DNA of 64,000 nucleotides from Chiloscyllium plagiosum (taxonomy: Eukaryota): the NCBI RefSeq assembly GCF_004010195.1, contig NC_057753.1, forward strand, positions 12,403,138 to 12,467,137. The letters are read 5' to 3'. The notes below the pieces were generated by a model. That model saw only the letters and a list, made by a program, of their open reading frames with translations. It did not search any database and had not been told where the DNA came from. The position numbers were made by a program, and so were the translations under genes. Positions 570 to 53,086 of the stretch are shown one piece after another (position 1 is the stretch's first letter; every line of letters starts with the position of its first letter).

Positions 570-1068
570 AGTTTTTGTAATGCACAATTATTGGGGAAGC
601 ATTCTGTGCTGTTTTAATAATGTGCTCGACAGCAATGGTTGGCGGTGTCTTCAATTCGTGCATCCCGAATCTCCAGTGAAAATGTTTTTATACTTTATTC
701 ATCTGTACAACAAATCTCACTCCGCTCCAGATCCTCGCTTGGCCTTTCCCGAACTGGCTTTGCCTGAGAAAATATCTAACTTCGAAATAATAACCTGGCT
801 GTGAACATAATAAACGCAGGTGATGGTGAGACAGTGGCATTCCTTCCTCATAACTACTGCCGTGGTGTGTGTCACGGACTGACTGAAAGCGCCTCGAAAT
901 TAAACAGGGAGAGTTAAGTGGACTGGAGCAAAGAAAAAAAAAACATCAAACGGTGCAACTTCGCGAATATCTCAGAAAAAGACGAGGTGGTGAGGAAAGT
1001 TACATCGAATCAAAATAATGCCTGTTTGTTTCATCTGTACTCAGGTTGAAAGTAAGAAAGATTTCCAT
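570..1068 (-). pseudogene. NAR-TCR V (IgNAR-like V) pseudogene 1 with 23-RSS
   Basis: V exon 892-609 after an AG acceptor reads AFSQSVTHTTAVVMRKECHCLTITC.. /frameshift/ YYFEVRYFLRQ..SGVRFVVQMNKV /frameshift/ TFSLEIRDARIEDTANHCCRAHY. It has a VNAR-like short FR2/CDR2 and an extra FR1 Cys (KEC). RSS is CACAGAA(608-602)-23-ACAAAAACT(578-570). A leader remnant MEIFLTFNL starts at the ATG at 1068, with its donor deleted. Confidence 0.85.
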
Positions 1069-6563: not shown

Positions 6564-6934
6564 AAGTTGTGAACCTACAGAATCCTGCTGCTGTTTTCCG
6601 TTCTGCCCTCCACGGATCTGAATGGATAAGGTGACGTGCTGCATCTTCCTCCGTGGTGGTTGTTAGTGAATTGGAAATTGTGTCCATGAATTTCTCAATT
6701 TCCATCACATTTAAGATAGTGATTTGTTATAGACAGCTCCTGAATCATCCACCCCTGCATCTCGTGATGGTCAAATTTGAAGATGATCATACCACGAGGA
6801 TCACCACTCAATCAACAGAGATTACAAAGTTACTACCCTGACTGTGTAAGATGCCATATATACTGACACTGAACCTACCTCTCTGCAAATGAGAGCACAT
6901 CGTCACAAATAGGTGGTGAGTCCATACCAAATCC
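6564..6934 (+). pseudogene. Intronless leader-V TCR (alpha-type) pseudogene, copy 1
   Basis: Colinear with 13715-14048. ATG changed to AAG, with stops and frameshifts. RSS is CACATCG(6896-6902)-23-ACCAAATCC(6926-6934). Confidence 0.85.
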
Positions 6935-8649: not shown

Positions 8650-10002
8650 AATAAAATTTAAACTATCAATGGTGCACAATATAAACAATGTATCCATATT
8701 GTGTGGTAGTAGGCCATTCGGCCCATAGAGACTCTGAAGAGCATCATACTCGAACGTACCCTCTCCCTGCATCTCCTCTGGCTAATTCACCAATCTGCCT
8801 AACTTTTAAATGTGGGTAGGTTCAAGAGCACCCGCTGGAAACCCATGCAGACATATGAAGACTGAGCAAACTCCACACAGAATGCCACCTGAAGTTGAAA
8901 TCGATCATGCATCTGTGGTGCTGCGAAGCAGCAGTACTAACCACTGAGCCTCAGTGCCATCTTCATACGAATTATTTCTGAAAATCCATGATTTGTTAAT
9001 GCGTCCCTCAAACATTGCTCATTTATGGGCGCCAGAGATTTTGTAGTGGTCTCGCCAACATTCTGTATCATCACAGACACTGAAAGTGTCTATAACGTGG
9101 TCTTCTTGTAGTCTCATAAAAACATTATCGCCACATGCGTTCCCATGTATTTTTGTGTCATCGAAAAACCTGGCAGTGGTACTTTCACTTCAATCAGGAT
9201 TTGGATGATGCATGGACGTTTCTGCTCTTACATTATTCCCATTCAGATGAGGGAGACTTGACTGCAATGTGTTCTTTTTCTTTCAAATATTCTGTAACCA
9301 TGTATGTGCGTGGCTGTCAATGCCAGCATCTACATCGCAGAGTCTGTGACAATGCCACTGTCAGCCATCGATTTGAAACGATGCAGTGCATCTGCTTTTC
9401 ATACAGGAGTTACATTTACAATGAGACTTAGCAAAGTTAAACAAATCCAGTTGCAATGGATATTCCCAGTAAATTCATCAAAAGCAACATTCGATCCTAC
9501 TGCTTCAATCATTAAAAAATTCCTTGTGGAATAACATGTTTGGATACAATGTGGGAGTAAAGTAGTCTGAAATCTTTGGATGCTGCAAAGGAAATTGAAA
9601 TGCAGACCCTGAACTAATTACAGTGTTCCACACGGATGTGGGACACATGTGTTTTCATTTATCATTATCCAGTGAAGTGGAACGATGTGAGATTTTGAAC
9701 ATTGCAATTAGTTGTATATGCCACTAGATGGTAGTGTGTTTCTGTGATCAAACTTGAAGATGAGGGCTGGAGGAGGAGTGACCTTCCCGACAGTGTGAGC
9801 AACTGTCAGTGTGAGAGGCTTGTTACAGAAACAATCGCCAAGACTTAGATTCTTCAGCAACTTCAACAGGAAAGTGGTTCTGAGTAAGATGAGAAGCGTG
9901 CATTATTCTCGTTATTTGCTCTTATAAAGACGATATTTATGTTCAGTTCCTCAACTGAGTTCTGTGGACAATCGTTTTCCTCACTGTTCTTGCAAGCTTT
10001 TG

Positions 10003-10374
10003 ATGTTCTGAATTTGCAGATCCTCCTGCTATTTTCCACTCTGACCTCCACAGAGGTGACTGGAGAAGGTTAAGTGATGCAACTTCCGTGGTGGGTGGTT
10101 GTTGGTGAAATGGGAATCGTGTCCATGAGTTGTTCCTTCGCTCCTGCATTTAGCACAGTGCATTGATACAGATAGTTCCCAAAATAGCGATCACTGCATC
10201 TGGTGATGGCCAAACGACAAGATGATCAGCCCGAAATGATCGCCGTTTCAATCAGTGGAAATAACAAACTTAGTGCTCTGACTGCAAAGGACGCCATACT
10301 TAATGACACCACCACCTGCCTCACTGCATCGACGGCACGGTGTCATAAACAGATAGCGAATCCATGCCAAAACA
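10003..10374 (+). pseudogene. Intronless leader-V TCR pseudogene, copy 2
   Basis: Starts ATG TTC TGA (stop at codon 3), and YLC has become CLT. RSS is CACGGTG(10336-10342)-23-GCCAAAACA(10366-10374). Confidence 0.85.
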
Positions 10375-12995: not shown

Positions 12996-13212
12996 ATGAT
13001 GATGATGCGAATTTGCAGAATCCTGCTGCTGATTTTCACACTTATCTCCGTGGAAGTGACTGCAGAAGATGATGTGATGCAACTTCCTCCGTGGATGGTT
13101 GTTAGGCAAGTGGGAATCGTGTCCGTGAATTCGTCCTTTGCCACTGAATGTAGAACAGTGCTTTGGTACACACTGCTCCTGAATTAACCATCCCAGTTTT
13201 GGCTGATGGCTA
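12996..13212 (+). pseudogene. Intronless leader-V TCR pseudogene, copy 3 (3'-truncated)
   Basis: Reads MRICRILLLIFTLISVEVTAEDDVMQLPPWMVVRQVGIVSVNSSF..VLWY. It breaks in FR2 and is fused to the upstream region of copy 4, so FR3 and the RSS are missing. Confidence 0.8.
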
Positions 13213-13438
13213 TCATTGGATTCTATTGCTTCACTCATTAAACATTTCCTTGTGGAACAAGACTTTGGTTACTTTGTTAGAGGAGAGCGGTGTGAAAGAT
13301 TGAGAGGCAGCAAATGAAGTTGAAATGCAGAGTCTCACCTATCTTCCACCACGAAGGATGACATAAGTGTTTCCATTGAACAGTAATCAGTGAACTGTAA
13401 TTACTGTCAGAATGTGAACAGCGCAACAAATTGTACAC

Positions 13439-13647
13439 GTCACAAGATGGCAGCGCGATTCTGTTATAAACCTTGAAGATGAGGGTTTGAGGAGGAGTGA
13501 CCTTCCAGACAGTGCGAACAACTGTCAGTGTGAATGGCTTGCGACGGAAACAAACGCCAAGACTTCGCATTTTGTGCAACTTCAACAGCATGGCATTTCA
13601 GAGTTAGATGTGACGTGTGCATATTCTATTAGTTTAATCTTATAAAT
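13439..13647 (+). promoter_or_regulatory. Promoter of the intronless V: CTCF-like motif, CRE half-site and TATA box
   Basis: GTCACAAGATGGCAGCG (13439-13455), TGACG (13611-13615) and TATAAAT (13641-13647), about 70 nt before the ATG at 13715. The block is recognisable in all four units. Confidence 0.5.
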
Positions 13648-13714
13648 ATCATACTTACCTTCCTCAAAGAGCACCGCGGATAACTGCTTTCACCACTGTT
13701 CATGTAGTCTGATA

Positions 13715-14048
13715 ATGTTCCAAAACTGCAGAGTCCTCCTGTTGTTTTCCACTCTGATCTCCACGGTGGTGATTGGAGAAGGTGAAGTGCTGCAACAACC
13801 TCTGTGGATGGTTGTTAGTGAAGTGGGAATTGTGTCCATGAATTGCTCCGTTGCCACTAAATTTAGCACAGTGCATTGGTACAGACAGCTGCCAAATCAG
13901 CCACCCCAGCATGTGATGATGGCCAAAAGAGAAGATGATCAGCCAGAGAGAATCGTCGCTTCAATCAGTGAAGATTACAAACTCAGTACCTTGACTGTGA
14001 AAGATGCCAGACTTAATGACACCGCCAACTACCTCTGTGCAGTGAAGG
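13715..14048 (+). CDS. TCR V segment (alpha-type), intact, leader and V in a single exon
   Basis: One ORF MFQNCRVLLLFSTLISTVVIG-EGEVLQQP..MNC..HWYRQLPNQPPQH..LTVKDARLNDTANYLCAVK with C23, W41 and C104. It is followed by RSS CACAGTG(14049-14055)-23-ACGAAAACG(14079-14087). Confidence 0.9.
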
Positions 14049-16386
14049 CACAGTGTCACAAACAGATGGAGCGCCCGTACGAAAACGTGCACAGAATGGG
14101 AGTTCTGCTATGCTGATTTTGAAGTATGTGTGTTAGTAACTGTGGGCATGAAAATCCAAAATAAGGAAAATGAAGGCAAAATATCAGGGTAAAAAATGAA
14201 CAGTAATTTTTAAACATTGTCATAAGTGATGACAATTGGATATGTGGAGGGAGGTAAAGGAAGGATGCACTTGCAACCGAGAAACATTAATGGAGAAAAG
14301 GGAAAGTGGAGATGTATATTAATAATACTTACAGAGGACAGAATGGTGATAACCTGTTGAAGAATAAATGGAAGAAATAGAAATATAACGATCATGATGC
14401 ACATTGATTAAAGATCAGGCTAAATTACTTTTGAAGGATACATGAAAATAACAGGGTGGTCTTTCTTTTAAGATGTTATCATCAACACTGAATCCTCAAC
14501 TCTCAACATGCCGGAAAATTCGTTGAGCAGAAATCCAACCGGGATTCACCAGAAAACACGTCAGAGGATAAAATATAGCTGTCTGTAAAGTTTCTCCGGA
14601 CTCCCCAAAGCCTGCCAATCTTCTAAAAGGCGCAAACTGGAGTGTTTTGGAATACACCCTACTTTTATCGTTGGGTGCAGCCCCCAAAATACTCAAGAAT
14701 CTTAATATCTTTCAGGATAAAGCAGCCCGCTTGATTGGTACTGCATCCACAAGCATATGCTGCCTCTACGATGACTTTCAGTTTGTGTTATCGATAAAAT
14801 TCACTGCAAAATATTACCAAAGAACTTCAGACAGCAACTTCAAAATGCAGGGCTACTTCCATCTCGAAGGATAAGGGACAGCTGCTTTTTGGGAGTACAC
14901 TCAACTTCCAGGGCACCTCAAAGCCATTCACCATGCTGACTTAGAAATATATTGGCGTTCCTTGACTGTCGCTTGTTCAAAACCTGGAAATTTCCTTCCT
15001 AATAATATTGTGGACGCAGGAGGTGGACTGGAGTGGTTCAAGAAGGTAACTTGACATCACTTTCTCAAGAGGAACGAGGGGCGGTGAATAAACACTAGCC
15101 GCCCAGCGACTCCCAGATTCCACAAAATGAATAAATAAAGACAACAATCAATCGTATGCAAACTTGAAAGCAGTTTGGAAGCAAACCATTCAGCCCACCA
15201 AGTCCATTCCGAACCTCTAAAGAACATCCCAGCCAATTCTAGTAACCCTGCACCTCCTATTGCTAATTCACGTATCCTACTCATCTTTCCACTGTGGGTG
15301 GAAACCCGAGCGCCCATAGGAAACCCACGCAGTGGCAGAGAGCATATGCAAACTCCACTCAGAGAATCACCTTAAGCTGAAATTGAGCATAGCTGTCTGG
15401 CAGTGTACCTCTGCTCTCTCACTATTCTCATCCAGATGAAGGAGACCATGCCACAATGTAATTTATTCCCGTTAACAACCCATTAGCCTTGTATGGGAGC
15501 CGCTGGTGTCCATCTCTAATAGTCTGAGACAAAGTGGCAGTAGACCATGTGTTTGATACGCTGCAGGGCATCTGATATCGATGCAGAAGCTACGCTGCCG
15601 ACGACACAAAGTAAAATTAAGCAAATTCAGTTGCAATGGATCATGTCAATAATGGCAACATTTGATGGTTATGTTGCGTTGATGGTAAATGTCGTTGCTT
15701 ATTTATTTTTTAAACGTCATTATTGCATCAAAATCCCTTAGATCCACCAGTCCTCTGCATCAGATGAAGCGGCTGCCAAAATCTGAAAGCAGCTTTGTTA
15801 ACTGGGGAGGTCCTTTTCTGATACTCGAACAGCATGAACTAATTTCCTTCTTTGGCTTTGCTTAGAGAAATAATAACCGTTTAGGGATAACATTTGGTTT
15901 AACCTCTGTCTAAAACCTAGTGTGTACTTGAACAAACCTACTTTGTAAACACAGACAAGAAACACGCACAGGCACAGATATGCCGTCACGAAATCACCAT
16001 CCATTTACATGTGCAGAGAATTCTGGCTCTGGCCAGCCATCTCGGAGTCAGTCCATGAAATGAGGAGACTCAAATTCTGCTTTTTATGTCTGGTGCCCAA
16101 GGTTGCCTCACTGGCCCAAGTTAACAACCCCAATGCAGGACCTCATAGGAAATGAGAGCCACCTCATTCTAAACCCGACAGATCATTAAACGAAAATAAG
16201 GAAGAACTGAGTTTGCTCGAAATCTTAAACAGAAACAGAAATAACTGGAAAAACTCAGCAGGTCTGGCAGCAACTGGGCAGAGAAACATTAGTTAACTTT
16301 TCGGCTCCAGTAACCCTTCATCAGAATGTTGATCTTTTCTCACATTATCCATGATATGAAGTGGAGTACAAAGGAACTTGAAGCTG

Positions 16387-16568: not shown

Positions 16569-17318
16569 ATGTCGCCTGGAACTCTGTGTTTACTGCTCAC
16601 AGCTGCAGCACTTCTCACTAGTAAGTTGAAAACTTGTCTATGCATGTGCTTCAGCCCTTTTTTGGGATTACATTTACTCAAATAGTTTTGGCAAAATAGA
16701 AGAAACAATCCTGTCTCCCAAGTATTTTGGGAGAAGTTAAAGAAAGTACACGAGTGAATGACAATTGAAGATTTAGGCTGGAAATCCAGACAGGACTGAA
16801 ATCATTGCGATGATTCAATAGAAGAGAGAGTTTTATATCCACCAATAGTTTTCAGTTTGCCCGTCAAGTTTCGGGAGATGAAGTGGAAAATGATGTCATC
16901 GCATGAAATGGATTCTAATTAAGCTTCCCTGATTTATTTCTCGGGTTATTGATTCAGGTGGATAAGAATATAATAGTGCCTTATTTAATTTTCTATAACT
17001 TCTGGCTCTTACAGGACTTTGTCGTGGCGATTCTGTCTCACAAACACCGGCTGCATTCACAGTGAATGAGGGGGATGATGTCCAGTTGTTCTGTAATTAC
17101 ACTACAATAGACAGCGATCCTAGCCTATTCTGGTACCGTCAACCTTCCAATGGGTTCATGGAGTTTCTGCTCCTGAAAAGCAAATATAGGGAAAAAACGG
17201 CGAATTTTCTCCGGGACCGGCTTTCCTCGGATTTTGATCATGGAAACCATACTATCCAGCTGAAAATCTTGAAAACAGAACTAACAGACTCCGCAATGTA
17301 TTACTGTGCACTGAGACC
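16569..17318 (+). CDS. TCR V segment (alpha/delta), intact; leader 16569-16620, V exon 17015-17318
   Basis: Leader MSPGTLCLLLTAAALLT with phase-1 GTAAGT donor. V exon RLCRGDSVSQTP..LFCNY..LFWYRQ..TDSAMYYCALR. RSS is CACGGAG(17319-17325)-22-ACAAAAACT(17348-17356). Confidence 0.92.
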
Positions 17319-19849
17319 CACGGAGACTCAGAGGTGGCTGACCCTGTACAAAAACTCTTAGAGCGTCACTGAACATAGGAGTGTATTAGGCAAACAGTAA
17401 GATCAGGAGTGTAACTGAACTGGTTTCCGATTTTACGGTGATATGTCATACTTATCATTTGGACACAAAGCGTTAATCATTGTAAACCTATCACTGAAAT
17501 AAACTAATGCAGTTAGTTTCGTGAATGTAAAACAAATAATTTATTTTGAATCTATCATGATGATCCAAAATGCTTCATTGTTCCAGCGATGAGGTTCTAT
17601 GGAAAGTTAAGCAATTAGTTCTGATTCCGCAAAATCCTCCAGTAATATTGAATTGCAGCATTCGTTTTCACAGACAATGACTTGTCACAGGTTTCCAACA
17701 CAAAAACACTGGAACAACCTGTACAACTTCAAACACATTTTGTGATATTGAGTACTGCCTCTGACCCTTCACGTTTACAAACCCAAAATGCGAAGTTATA
17801 GATTCACAGATCTTTTAAAATATCAAGAAGGAGTTCGGATGCAACTGGCATCTGAACAACACAAACCAATTGAAAACATTTCGTCGTGGCTGATTATTGA
17901 GTCAAAGCCATCAGTAAAGCAAATCAGTCGCTTCAGCCTTCTGCTGTTAAGCTGGACTGAAATGAACATTTTTCATCCTCTCTGTAAGTGTGTTGATTCT
18001 TTGTCAGCAATTCACATCTGGACATTTAAGTTGTCAAGACTAGCGGGTTCCTCTTCTCCCTCTGGCGGTAATTAAGAGAAAGAAAATCCTATTTTCATAG
18101 TCAGTCACAAAAGAGACATTCCTGACTCTGGGTGCTCGAATAAAGTGAAGTCTGTTTCTGCAGAAAATAGGATGCACGTGGTGCTCAGCATCTCTTAGGA
18201 GTTAGTTTATTCTGCACAGTCGGAATGAAACATTTGTTATCGAAATGGTGAAACCGATTGATCGGATCACACGTTAGATGGCATATTGCGAAGTGGGCAG
18301 CCATGTGGGTTTCATAGAGGCAGTTGCACAGATAGTTTCTGGGAGTGTTCAGTCTTTGTGTAAGTATTCCATTGCACAATGATACACTTCAGTGTCTTTC
18401 ATCTCAGTACTACCAACAGCAATAATGCTATGAACAAAAACAGAAGTTGCTGGAAAAGCTAAACAGGTCTCAGTGCGTCTCTGAAGAAAAATCAGTTACT
18501 GTTTCGGATCCTGCGATCCTTCCACAGAACTGGAAGAGGCACCAGACCAGAAACATTAACTCTGACATTTCTTCAAAGATTTTGCCAGACCTGCTGATCT
18601 TTTCCAGCAACATTGGCTTCTGTTCCTGATTTACAGCATCTGCAGTTCTTTCGGTTTTTATTTACCAACAATGTTATAACTTCTTGATAATTTAGTCAAG
18701 AGGTGAACTAGCAGTCATAATCAATCATAGAACCATATAGCACAAACACAGACCATTTGGCCCATCATGTCTGCGCTGACCAAGTGATGATGAAAATGTT
18801 CTTCGTAAATGCATAATGCTAAATCCTACTGCAGGTTCTCTCTCAAGTTCGTGCATTAAACTTTATTCATTGAAGTCATTTGGAATGCCAAACAAATATG
18901 AAGGCCATTACAAAACAAATATTTATAAAATACATGTTCATATACTTAATGACTGCAGTAGGTTTGTCTGCATTAAAGCAGAACATATTGGCAAAAGATT
19001 TACAAGGGCGTTGCTCAGTGAGAACCTGGAAAGCCGGGCCACAGAGTTTAAGGTAAACAATATTTAGATTTCATGTGCGTTTGAACGACTGCTTAAAGAG
19101 ACAACAGGATCTCATTAACCTGATTGTCCCAAATGCTGATTGTAGGAATATGCAGTATCAGATTTCCCAGTGACAATCACCTTCCAATCGGGTGCACAGC
19201 GTGAAACATTGAAACAGTTCATATTGTCGCCTTGGATGTCATTCTGAAGAAAGTGAAGTTATGATCATTTGATGTTGTCCAGCAGGCAAACTGAACGAAA
19301 GTACAAAGCAGTAGATACTGACAGAGGCCTGTTTTGAAGCATTGAGCTGCAGCGAATGTGCAGCACCAATAAAACGTGTTGTTCAACTCGTCTGATTCCA
19401 GAACCCTTGCTAGAAATTACCAGAAGATTCTCATTGAATTTATTCGAGGTCTTGACTTCAATAGACCTCGCACTAAGCATGAAAGAACATTTCACGAGAT
19501 TGGATGACAAAATGGAGGAAAGACTGTGACTGAAATAAGAGAAAGCTCCAGCAGGAAAAGAGGTGATCGTGAACCAAAGACATGAAGACAAATATGGTTT
19601 GTTTTACAGAAAAGGCTCAATCGAAGCATTGGCAGTTATTATCGTTGCTTTTCATTCGGGTGTTGCGAAGGTTACTGTTCCCACTTGTGATTCTGTTAAC
19701 ATCTCAACTCTGCAGTGAATATGTCAAAACTATGTCCTGAGTGAGCGATGCAACGGATAGCGCACCTGACTGCTAACCAGCACGACATTGGTGCCACTCC
19801 AGCTTGTCTCAGTGCATTTTACAATATGTCTAAACTGGTCTATATTTAA

Positions 19850-25876: not shown

Positions 25877-26279
25877 AGTTCTTGTACAGCCTCATACTCT
25901 TTTTGTTTCACTGTGTCTGACTGCACTGTAATAGACCGCGGTGTCTGACAGCTCAACTGTGTTAACAGCCAGAGTGGTGGAGCCTTTCTTACTGTCCACA
26001 GATACTTTAAACCTTCCTTCAATTCTTTCATCCCTGAAAGTTGAGACGAGGTACTCGGGAGCTTGTTTGGCGAGCTGTCTGTACCAGAACACAAAGTCAT
26101 TCGGGGAAATAGTAACGGTGTGTTGGAGTGAAATGTTTTGTCCGACTATTCCCTGATAAATAGATATCAGGACTGCTTCCGACTGGCAAGAAATAGCTGC
26201 AAAACATGATCAGAAGTGAACAAAATCAACTTAACGTTTCTTTAACGAGAACTAAATAAAGTGTCAGTGAAATAAGCAT
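25877..26279 (-). pseudogene. TCR V segment with open V exon (26196-25916) lacking both canonical Cys; leader splice apparently defective
   Basis: Reads ISCQSEAVLISIYQGIVGQNISLQ[H]TVTISPNDFVFWYRQLAKQAPEYLV..ELSDTAVYY[S]AVR. RSS is CACAGTG(25915-25909)-23-ACAAGAACT(25885-25877). Leader MLISLTLYLVLVKE starts at 26279 and has no phase-1 GT donor. Confidence 0.85.
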
Positions 26280-38748: not shown

Positions 38749-39595
38749 TATTAGGAGTTTATTTTTACTTTACTGTTTCTGCTACAGCTGTCTTAGATGG
38801 TAAATTGAAAATTTGTTCATAACTTCATTTCACAAATGTCGCACTTATGACAATTAATCAGAGCACAGAAATGTCCAGACATTGATCTGAAAAGAAAAGA
38901 GTTGGAACCTTCCTCAATTTGTTTCTAAAATAAATTGCATACGTCAGCTGAAAGTTTTTGCTGAATCGTTCATGATCAGGCCCATCACAGTGAACTAAAT
39001 GTTACATATGATAAACACCAGATGTATATTAATTTTGCTTTACAACACAGGTGGAGTAAAGGACATCAAAGATGGCACCAAAAGTGCATTAAAGCACATG
39101 AAATTATTCATTGCAGAACATCTCCTTCATATGTCTCTATATGTGCTTGTACATTATTTCTCAAGTAAGTGTCGCGTTTGTTAGATTGTTTCGGGGGAGA
39201 AATCACAGTGATATATAATTCTTTAACTTCATATGTCTCTTTTCTTTAACAGGGCATTGTCGAGCTGACTCAGTTTAACAGACACCGGCGGAAACCTCAG
39301 TAAATGAAGGACATGATGTTCAATTATTCTGTAATTGCACAGTTACAAGCAGCAATTGCCTTTATTGTTCTGGGATCTTCAATATTCAAGTGGATCCATT
39401 GAGTGTTTGGTACATGAGAATAGCTTTAGTGACAATGCAGAAAATCTCCACAGAATCGTTTTTCAGTGACAGTCAATAATCTAATAGGACTGTGATCCTA
39501 CAGCTCATTAAACCACAGCTGACAGACTCCGCCATGTATTATTGCACACTGAGATCAACAGAGACTCAGAATTGGAGTGAACCTGTACAAGAACT
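38749..39595 (+). pseudogene. TCR V pseudogene, paralog of 16569-17318 (V exon 39253-39556)
   Basis: Reads GHCRADSV*QTPAETSVNEGHDVQLFCNC /frameshift/ ..LTDSAMYYCTLR. RSS is AACAGAG(39557-39563)-23-ACAAGAACT. The leader relic near 38750-38800 has no ATG. Confidence 0.88.
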
Positions 39596-40479
39596 ATCAG
39601 ACTACCGAGCAACTTGTCAGCGAATGAGCGAGCTGAGGCATTGACAAGCGGTTCATCAATGGCGCGTCCTGATTCTGCCCCTGATTCGTGATGATCTCAT
39701 CCATTCATAATTCTAATAATTGTATTGCGTTAAAGTGAATTCAGATGCATTTTTGCATTCCTACTTTTTGAAGTAGCAAAATACGCAGCAGAGTCATCAC
39801 TGTGAACAACGAAGAAATGAAATCAAGCTATTATATGTGTAAGAAAACACGGGAGGGAAGCATATAGACAGTATGAGGGGTCAGCAAATGGACCACTGCG
39901 GCCAATTAAACAGCAATGAAATCAAAATAAATGATTGTGAACGAAATTTGTGTTTTGTTGTTATCTACTGGGCAGATCAGGATGGCGGAACAAAATCTAC
40001 ACGAGGGCTCAGTGCTTAAAGCTGCTGCCTTAGAAGTCCACCCTTGGACGACTGTCTGTGTGGAGTTTGCATATTTTCACCCCCTATACCCGCCTTTGTA
40101 CCTGCGTGAATTTCCTCAGGTTCCCCGGTTTCTTCCCATAATCCAGGGCATGCAAGTTAGGTGGCTTGGTCCTGAGGAAATGCAGAGTTAGAGGGATATT
40201 CTTCGGTGGTTCTGGGTGGGATCCTGTCACCAGCGAAACAACTGCATATGCTTGTTGTAAACTCTTTGTTATTTTTTGGATTAGTTCTTTTTAAATATTA
40301 AGTCGATGTTCTCGTTCCCCGGAACAAGATGTAAGGTACATTGTTCAGCTTTTGTGACAATATTGCTACATTATGTTCAGAAAGATTTCGATAAAAAAGG
40401 TGCACATAAAACCTTTCCAGTCTGTCACATTTCTATTTTAAATCATTTTGACTGGCCTTGTACTCGCAGGAATTTAAAT

Positions 40480-52493: not shown

Positions 52494-52761
52494 TGATTTT
52501 GTGCAGCTCTCTTTGTGCTCTGTGATGCTGGGTATATGTAACCGCAACATATTCAGGTCCTTGTGCAGGTCTCTCCGTGCTCTTTTTCACTGTGTCGCTA
52601 ATTTCCAAGATGAGAAACATTTTTTTCAAAGCTTTCACCGTGCTGTGTATCACTCCATGTTGTTATCTGAGAGCTCTCAGTGATCTGTAAACTCGATGTG
52701 TAATTCCCAGCGTGTTCAGGTTTTTGTGCAGCTCTCTCCGTACTGCATATAACTGTCTGTG
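52494..52761 (-). repeat. Tandem array of four homologous 23-RSS copies downstream of the supporting V-delta
   Basis: + strand nonamer-spacer-heptamer: TGATTTTGT gcagctctctttgtgctctgtga TGCTGGG (52494-52532); GGTCCTTGT gcaggtctctccgtgctcttttt CACTGTG (52556-52594); ATTTTTTTC aaagctttcaccgtgctgtgtat CACTCCA (52619-52657); GGTTTTTGT gcagctctctccgtactgcatat AACTGTC+TGTG (52719-52761). Confidence 0.75.
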
Positions 52762-53086
52762 CTGAGCGCCGACTCAGTATATAATAATACACAGAGGAGT
52801 CATTTGCTTGTTTTTGTGAGATCATTGAGATTTTCACTGCAGGATCAATGGAAGCAGAAATTCATATGCCTGCACGATTTTCATTCGTCTGCTCTCCTGA
52901 CGTGAGTCTTTGAATTACGTGTTTGGGGGCTGACAGTACAAGTAAACTGTGTACGGACAGATCCCTGAATAATTACAGCTTAAAGTAACGGTGTAACCGG
53001 CAGGAGATATTTGTAGGGGTGGACCCCGAGAAACCAGGGAACAGGAACATTTAGGATGACATTCAGCATCATCACTCATTCATCCT
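52762..53086 (-). pseudogene. Leaderless NAR-TCR supporting V-delta (STCRDV) pseudogene
   Basis: AG acceptor at 53088-53087 with no leader exon nearby and a short N-terminal linker. Reads SPAGYTVTLSCNYSGICPYTVYLYCQ (extra CDR1 Cys) ..ISASIDPAVKIS..NDSSVYYYILSRRS. It has stops, frameshifts and C104Y. Confidence 0.85.

What the first reader, a model, noticed from the sequence alone, without database searches (positions are those of the whole stretch)
13715..14087. Intact TCR V gene with leader and V domain in one intronless exon and a functional-looking RSS
Seen: signal peptide and V domain form one uninterrupted ORF, followed by CACAGTG-23-ACGAAAACG and preceded by a TATA box. The other V genes here with a readable leader (16569, 27003, 33811) have the usual phase-1 leader intron. 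Established: the split leader is near-universal in Ig/TCR V genes; from memory, exceptions include an avian V-alpha family and retro-processed marsupial TCR-mu Vj. Inference: because the RSS and promoter are retained, this looks like precise intron loss, for example by gene conversion from a spliced transcript, or an ancient intronless V lineage. It does not look like a retrocopy of a rearranged mRNA.
Basis: partly seen in the sequence, partly recalled or inferred. Interest (0 to 1): 0.7.

Follow-up and report, generated by a model that had tools for sequence, protein, structure and literature searches.

The report
Shark TCR V family, unsplit leader
This shark T-cell-receptor variable gene, like 14 intact sister genes in the same genome, has its predicted signal peptide and its variable domain in one unbroken exon ahead of a normal recombination signal; chickens already show this rare layout, and here it likely arose once, long ago, likely when the end of the old intron was read through as a new signal peptide.

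Summary
Observation confirmed. The ORF at 13715-14048 carries a predicted 21-aa leader fused to a V domain, followed by a 23-RSS. It lies in a shark TRA/TRD locus about 2.1 Mb upstream of TRDJ-TRDC-TRAJ. It is one of 15 intact genes of one clade (100/99) with this layout; 70 of 72 other intact V genes scored keep a phase-1 acceptor. Contigs from four RNA-like runs cross the leader/V boundary unspliced and stop or diverge at the V end, while a neighbouring V is spliced. The cited TATA box lies inside those contigs. A spliced V is among its nearest relatives, so the state is likely derived, and probably separate from avian TRAV1 (AU p=0.10). The route is unresolved: I put intron read-through at 0.5 (long 5' region, leader-like ghost frame upstream, not significant against nulls) and precise intron removal at 0.35. 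The layout is known from chicken TRAV1/TRGV1; I found no shark report in nine searches. This scan noted the same family earlier in other shark genomes.

The parts
13715..14048 (+). Single exon encoding leader plus TRAV domain (111 codons + 1 nt); Cys23 at 13844, Trp41 at 13877, Cys104 at 14036
   Evidence: best sequence matches mostly TCR alpha chains; beta-strand model, pLDDT 62, matches TCR alpha and light-chain V folds
13715..13777 (+). Predicted 21-aa signal peptide. The usual phase-1 intron position is 13766|13767, where the gene reads CGG|TG, with no AG
   Evidence: 8-residue hydropathy 2.6. Cleavage site is inferred from the -3/-1 rule (recalled) and from alignment with V 33811; no signal-peptide predictor was available
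14043..14044 (+). T8G9 dinucleotide, the V-alpha microhomology signature
   Evidence: 91 of 113 J segments start with TG; PMC10322711 section 7
14049..14087 (+). 23-RSS: CACAGTG, 23 nt, ACGAAAACG
   Evidence: contig depth is zero beyond 14047 in X2 and X5
13516..13714 (+). Long transcribed 5' region, reaching 130-199 nt before the ATG in four runs; contains TATAAA 13641-13646
   Evidence: contig 5' ends at 13516, 13541, 13585, 13535; lower bounds, not start sites
13610..13664 (+). Possible decayed older leader exon ('ghost' frame), frameshifted in this gene; end position approximate; unproven
   Evidence: suggestive, not significant against nulls
13444..13503 (+). Candidate promoter motifs: AAGATGGC at 13444, TATAAA at 13465, AGTGACCT at 13496. 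The CTCF-like and decamer-like labels are recalled
   Evidence: function untested
6564..6930 (+). Broken paralogue with the same unsplit layout (no start codon, stops, frameshifts)
10002..10373 (+). Broken paralogue with the same unsplit layout (1-nt deletion in leader, stops, no Cys104)
13002..13211 (+). Truncated paralogue: leader and FR1 open, homology ends in FR2
16569..17356 (+). Neighbouring split-leader V used as control (intron 16621-17014)
   Evidence: joint 16620 to 17015 GT..AG in X3 and X5

Best explanation
This is a germline T-cell-receptor alpha/delta V gene of a shark, one of 15 intact genes of one clade whose predicted signal peptide and V domain share one exon; it is likely rearranged by RAG to downstream J segments and likely expressed without leader splicing, and the layout likely arose once when the 3' end of the old leader intron was read through as a new signal peptide. 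Shown: the open frame, the RSS, the family, one clade, and contigs crossing the boundary unspliced and ending at the V end. Inferred: (1) RAG joins this 23-RSS by deletion to a 12-RSS J about 2.1 Mb downstream, probably a TRAJ, through TG microhomology. (2) The fused leader targets the chain to the ER and is cut after Gly21. (3) In an ancestor with a normal split leader the donor site was lost, an in-frame ATG in the intron plus the pyrimidine tract gave a hydrophobic leader, the old exon decayed into a long 5' UTR, and the gene then multiplied by tandem duplication. Steps 1-2 are likely (about 0.85); step 3 is only slightly favoured over precise intron removal.
For: Gene and family. Of 72 other intact V scored on this contig, 70 have a YAG phase-1 acceptor and 1 has an in-frame ATG with hydrophobic read-through. 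One clade at 100/99, in a 96/86 group with spliced V C44:14115429 and three elephant-shark proteins (names). Locus: 113 J-like segments and a C-delta-like exon on the same strand. RNA-like contigs: X3 13585-13847 and X5 13535-13847 with 1 difference each; X2 13541-14044 then 90 unlike letters; no joint in 13400-14200; zero depth past 14047; control V spliced GT..AG. For the read-through route: contigs of the gene and paralogues reach 130-213 nt before the ATG, against 64 nt for one control contig. An upstream frame reads like a leader across the family, with its first triplet ATG or one change from ATG in 16 of 22 copies. That frame is among the top 3 of 190 windows in 9 of 22 copies. The 30 nt before the junction score between true exon ends and true intron ends (-4 to +9, against means of +15.8 and -16.3). 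5 of 44 real intron ends in the locus are already open and hydrophobic in the V frame.
Against: The ghost frame does not beat the null: the column-majority string scores 3.5, and 53% of control regions score as high. Its start triplet is not significantly more variable than other UTR triplets (13 changes against a mean of 9.5; 16% as high). No consensus donor site follows it. True leader exons align better at the present ATG (mean z 2.6) than at the ghost (1.4), and real intron ends score poorly as leaders (mean -11.4). The 17 codons + 1 nt before the junction fall in the normal exon-1 range. The leader shows no purifying-selection signal (dN/dS 0.73-1.16 against 0.26-0.51 in FR3). The RNA nature of the four runs is guessed or inferred, the J partner was not identified, and contigs cannot give start sites. 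All 9 intact subgroup-2 genes carry a TAG one codon into the V part that could act as an acceptor; no upstream leader exon was found within 2.5 kb, but their RNA was not examined.
Confidence: 0.5

Rival explanations
1. Same functional family, but the leader intron was removed precisely once, by gene conversion from a reverse-transcribed spliced germline V transcript or by an exact genomic deletion, so the present leader is the original exon 1.
For: 17 codons + 1 nt before the junction match normal exon-1 geometry, and CAG is the commonest exon-1 end (12 of 44), one change from the family's CGG. True leader exons align best at the present ATG. Both routes were proposed for opossum TRMVj (PMC2275272, passages). 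The ghost tests were not significant.
Against: Does not explain the long transcribed 5' region or the leader-like frame in it. The junction-proximal 30 nt are not clearly exon-like. No nucleotide homology to the nearest spliced relative's exon 1 was found (z -0.5). It needs a T-cell-restricted transcript copied in germ cells (inference).
Confidence: 0.35
2. The unsplit layout is ancient and shared with avian TRAV1, or primitive for this V lineage.
For: The AU test does not reject joining a curlew TRAV1-like V with the shark clade (p=0.099). The clade sits near the base of the V tree.
Against: The free tree puts the bird V in a different starred group (97/97) that holds spliced shark V genes. 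The shark clade groups with a spliced V. The split leader is described as canonical for all antigen-receptor genes (PMC12227049, passage).
Confidence: 0.07
3. The apparent leader is an intron tail that happens to be open, and the true leader exon lies upstream and is spliced in.
For: Intron tails can mimic leaders: 27 of 72 spliced V are open for 43 codons upstream of Cys23. Subgroup 2 has a TAG in phase 1, and two pseudogenes have CAG at the canonical position.
Against: No YAG acceptor in this gene or the 5 other intact subgroup-1 genes. ATG at the aligned position in 20 of 22 copies. No indel in the leader of the intact genes. Contigs cross the position unspliced with no joint; 9 loose ends were not displayed.
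Confidence: 0.04

Closest known systems
Chicken TRAV1 (V-alpha-1) and TRGV1 single-exon leader V families (PMC10972964, PMC8456604; passages read)
   Same: Multi-gene TCR V family with leader and V in one exon, a germline RSS, and split-leader families beside it.
   Different: Different vertebrate class. A bird TRAV1-like V (curlew, recognised by its QVQQ motif) falls in another part of the tree, so the origin is likely independent (not formally shown).
Opossum TRMVj (PMC2275272; passages)
   Same: V segment lacking the leader intron.
   Different: TRMVj is pre-joined to D and J in the germline; this gene keeps its RSS and is unrearranged.
Conventional shark TRAV/TRDV genes of the same locus, nearest C44:14115429, and elephant-shark V proteins P0057, P0102, P0114
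   Same: Same locus, 23-RSS, Cys23/Trp41/Cys104, TG end signature.
   Different: The same-locus genes have a phase-1 leader intron (70 of 72 with an acceptor). The intron state of the elephant-shark genes was not seen at DNA level.
Chiloscyllium punctatum hypothetical protein chiPu_0025496 (GCC41311.1; P0002) and unnamed JGI protein P0003
   Same: Same family (73% and 62% identity), leader and V in one predicted ORF running into the RSS.
   Different: Annotated only as hypothetical or unnamed; their DNA could not be fetched.

Membership tests
TCR alpha/delta V gene (TRAV/TRDV) | V-set domain with Cys23, Trp41 and Cys104 | tested here: met
TCR alpha/delta V gene (TRAV/TRDV) | 3' 23-spacer RSS | tested here: met
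TCR alpha/delta V gene (TRAV/TRDV) | Located in the TRA/TRD locus with 12-RSS J segments and C-delta | tested here: met
   113 J-like segments (107 with a 12-nt spacer) at C44:14.55-14.69 Mb and a C-delta-like exon at 14569375. The C-delta label is recalled from sequence and position; C-alpha was not located
TCR alpha/delta V gene (TRAV/TRDV) | Rearranged and transcribed | tested here: inconclusive
   Contigs end or diverge at 14041-14049 with no cover of the RSS, which fits rearrangement, but the J sequence was not identified
TRAV as opposed to TRDV | Joined to TRAJ and spliced to C-alpha | tested here: inconclusive
   T8G9 signature present (PMC10322711); the joined partner was not seen
Canonical split-leader V gene | Phase-1 intron within the leader | tested here: not met
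Single-exon-leader V family (chicken TRAV1 type, as an architecture) | Leader and V in one exon with germline RSS, shared by a family | tested here: met
   15 intact genes
Single-exon-leader V family (chicken TRAV1 type, as an architecture) | Working signal peptide | not testable with these tools
   Only hydropathy (2.4-3.3 over 8 residues in 13 genes) and geometry; no predictor or assay
Avian TRAV1 lineage (orthology) | Forms one clade with avian TRAV1 | tested here: inconclusive
   Separate in the free tree, but AU p=0.099 with a single bird sequence
Retro-processed pre-joined V (TRMVj type) | Germline-joined V(D)J without RSS | tested here: not met
   RSS intact, no J sequence at the V end

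The most novel reading that the evidence does not exclude
An expressed shark TCR-alpha V family replaced its original signal-peptide exon with a new signal peptide born from the pyrimidine tract of its own retained intron, leaving the old exon as a fossil in a long 5' UTR, independently of the chicken case and without any RNA intermediate.
Probability: 0.45. Interest if true: 0.55.

Novelty: new member of a known kind. Interest (0 to 1): 0.35.

Why it matters
The split leader is treated as canonical for antigen-receptor genes (PMC12227049, passage). A second, likely independent exception that expanded to 15 intact genes shows the intron is dispensable for TCR-alpha V use. In practice, V-gene finders that require a splice acceptor would miss this family in sharks, about one in six of the intact V genes scored here (15 of 87), a problem already met in chicken (PMC10972964). 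If the read-through route holds, it is a clean natural case of a signal peptide arising from an intron's pyrimidine tract, and the same test could be applied to chicken TRAV1. The layout itself is not new.

Tried and rejected
Protein search for longer relatives found nothing. The metagenome contig scan gave 153 pattern hits and none confirmed. The Pfam PF09291 search and a motif search did not locate C-alpha. No holder on record as RNA was listed. Raw single-cell runs X8 and X9 (one sample; about 2% and 6% read) gave 0 reads laid, which is no test. The loose end beyond the V in X5 is a mixed consensus of 2 contigs and matched none of 113 J segments convincingly. dN/dS on the leader gave no purifying signal. 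Four tests of the origin were inconclusive: exon-versus-intron matrix and local alignments, ATG-anchored identity, a leader score against controls (five doubtful leader calls dropped and one short one excluded, leaving 39 of 44 for the model) and parsimony changes at the ghost start. One search was read one base off and was corrected. A promoter-like hit at C44:13890489 proved to be a degenerate remnant without a V part. Long open frames at C8:73.6-74.1 Mb, C44:2.4-2.5 Mb and C44:14238634 looked like further intronless genes but have acceptors. Literature searches for a shark report found none. The library lacks most subscription papers, and the 19 supplements of PMC10322711, which may list shark V-alpha sequences, were listed but not opened.

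Full report
1. Observation. The sequence shows an ATG at 13715 and an open frame of 111 codons to 14047, with Cys23, Trp41 and Cys104 in place. CACAGTG follows at 14049, then 23 nt and ACGAAAACG ending at 14087. A 23-RSS within two mismatches occurs 4 times in the window against 0.09 expected. Best sequence matches among solved structures are mostly TCR alpha chains. The predicted model (pLDDT 62; residues 1-25 low confidence) is an all-beta fold matching TCR alpha and light-chain V domains. At the usual intron position (13766|13767) the gene reads CGG|TG, with no AG. The three comparison genes have introns of 394, 85 and 83 nt.

2. Locus. The window is G000:C44:12403138-12467137. On the same strand, about 2.1 Mb downstream, lie 9 J segments, a C-delta-like exon at 14569375 (label recalled) and about 104 further J segments; 91 of the 113 begin with TG. 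This is a TRA/TRD locus of a shark: the closest named protein is from Chiloscyllium punctatum (73%). The V end carries T8G9, the microhomology signature described for fish V-alpha (PMC10322711, section 7 read).

3. It is a family. Three broken paralogues with the same layout lie in the window. I fetched about 1.38 Mb of the 2.62 Mb between C44:12.14 and 14.76 Mb (window included), choosing stretches by earlier hits, plus 80 kb elsewhere. A profile search gave 189 V-like hits: 94 intact, 6 with stops and 89 partial or atypical, the last group not scored. Fifteen intact genes have an in-frame ATG 42-44 codons before Cys23, a hydrophobic leader and a 23-RSS. Of 72 other intact V genes on this part of the contig, 70 have a YAG phase-1 acceptor and one has a leader-like read-through besides its normal exon. 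An upstream profile finds 22 family copies in all. The six intact subgroup-1 genes, which include this one, have no acceptor. The nine subgroup-2 genes have a TAG one codon further in, but no leader exon was found within 2.5 kb; their splicing was not tested on RNA. The leader has no indel among intact genes, but dN/dS is 0.73-1.16, so codon-level selection is not shown.

4. Expression. No run holding the gene is on record as RNA. Four contig sets behave as RNA: they skip the control V intron (16620 to 17015, GT..AG, in X3 and X5; nearly the same joint in X1 and X2) and leave several intergenic bins empty. X3 (13585-13847) and X5 (13535-13847) match this gene with one difference each across the leader/V boundary. 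X2, from a related organism label, runs 13541-14044 and continues with 90 unlike letters. No joint is listed in 13400-14200 and depth is zero past 14047. Contigs end or diverge at 14041-14049, as V-J joining would cause; 14044 is the G of the TG signature. The J was not identified. Loose ends upstream of two paralogue contigs match those paralogues' own genomic flanks, so they are unspliced too. The contigs pass through TATAAA 13641, so that site is inside the transcribed region; TATAAA 13465 is a better candidate (inference). Raw runs X8 and X9 gave no test.

5. Origin. In a tree of 80 V domains (non-family genes thinned at 72% identity; 97 columns) the 17 family rows form one clade (100/99). 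It lies in a 96/86 group with spliced V C44:14115429 and three elephant-shark proteins; in a second tree that wider group had 87/86. The unsplit state is therefore likely derived once. A curlew TRAV1-like V falls elsewhere, but the union is not rejected (p-AU 0.099).

6. Route. Precise removal predicts that the present leader is the old exon 1. Read-through predicts a long 5' UTR with a decayed exon. For read-through: transcribed 5' regions reach 130-213 nt before the ATG; a frame 62-119 nt upstream reads like a leader across the family, with ATG or a one-step variant in 16 of 22 copies; the junction-proximal 30 nt score midway between exon and intron ends; and 5 of 44 real intron ends are already open and hydrophobic. 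Against: the ghost frame scores no better than about half of the control regions, its start is not significantly hypervariable, no good donor follows it, and true leaders align better at the present ATG. The copies share ancestry, so counts across them are not independent. I commit to read-through at 0.5 against 0.35 for precise removal. Before consulting earlier findings I stood at about 35 against 60.

7. Comparison and novelty. Chicken TRAV1 and TRGV1 have single-exon leaders (PMC10972964, PMC8456604; passages). Opossum TRMVj lacks the intron but is pre-joined (PMC2275272; passages). The split leader is called canonical for all antigen-receptor genes (PMC12227049; passages). Passages of PMC5931798, PMC5278385 and PMC12698447 mention no shark single-exon family. 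PMC2193156 (germ-cell rearrangement in sharks) was seen only as a search listing. Nine searches found no shark report; subscription papers and unopened supplements may hold one. This scan noted the family before in at least four genomes. Verdict: real, likely functional, a new member of a known kind; interest 0.35.

Noticed in passing
G000:C44:12298992-, 12713961-, 12768297-, 12828785+, 13120286-, 13196606+, 13392558-, 13420275-, 13436526-, 13467732-, 13504427-: A family of about 11 apparently open V genes lacks Cys23 (Phe instead) and Trp41 (Leu instead) but keeps the second cysteine, so the canonical disulphide could not form as usual.
   Followed up: no
G000:C44:2417217+ and 2532076+ (L159, L160): V segments with a 23-RSS whose acceptor sits right at the mature N-terminus, far from the TRA/TRD locus; they resemble the leaderless supporting V-delta of NAR-TCR (recalled).
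   Followed up: partly
G000:C8:73.57-74.12 Mb (L161-L165): Cluster of V exons without RSS; the two read in full include a J-like FGxG/MGxG end followed by a GT donor, i.e. non-rearranging or pre-joined VJ-type genes.
   Followed up: partly
G000:C44:14.28-14.35 Mb: IgH-like V segments with 23-RSS among the TCR V genes, as expected for TAILV/IgHV-type segments (label recalled).
   Followed up: no
window 25877-26190 (-): V segment with a good 23-RSS but His for Cys23 and Ser for Cys104 (YYSAV); a Heterodontus protein, P0130, has the same YYSAV ending, so the lack may be conserved.
   Followed up: partly
G000:C44:13815711+: A normal split-leader V whose intron also holds an in-frame ATG with an open, hydrophobic read-through, i.e. 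raw material for a replacement leader.
   Followed up: partly
window 16569-17356 and paralogues: Unsplit-leader genes are often followed within about 2-4 kb by a V of the 16569 family, suggesting a duplicated two-gene unit.
   Followed up: no
window 570-900 (-), 18300-18450 (-), 39150-39600 (+), 52556-53050 (-): Further degenerate V remnants, some with RSS-like ends.
   Followed up: no
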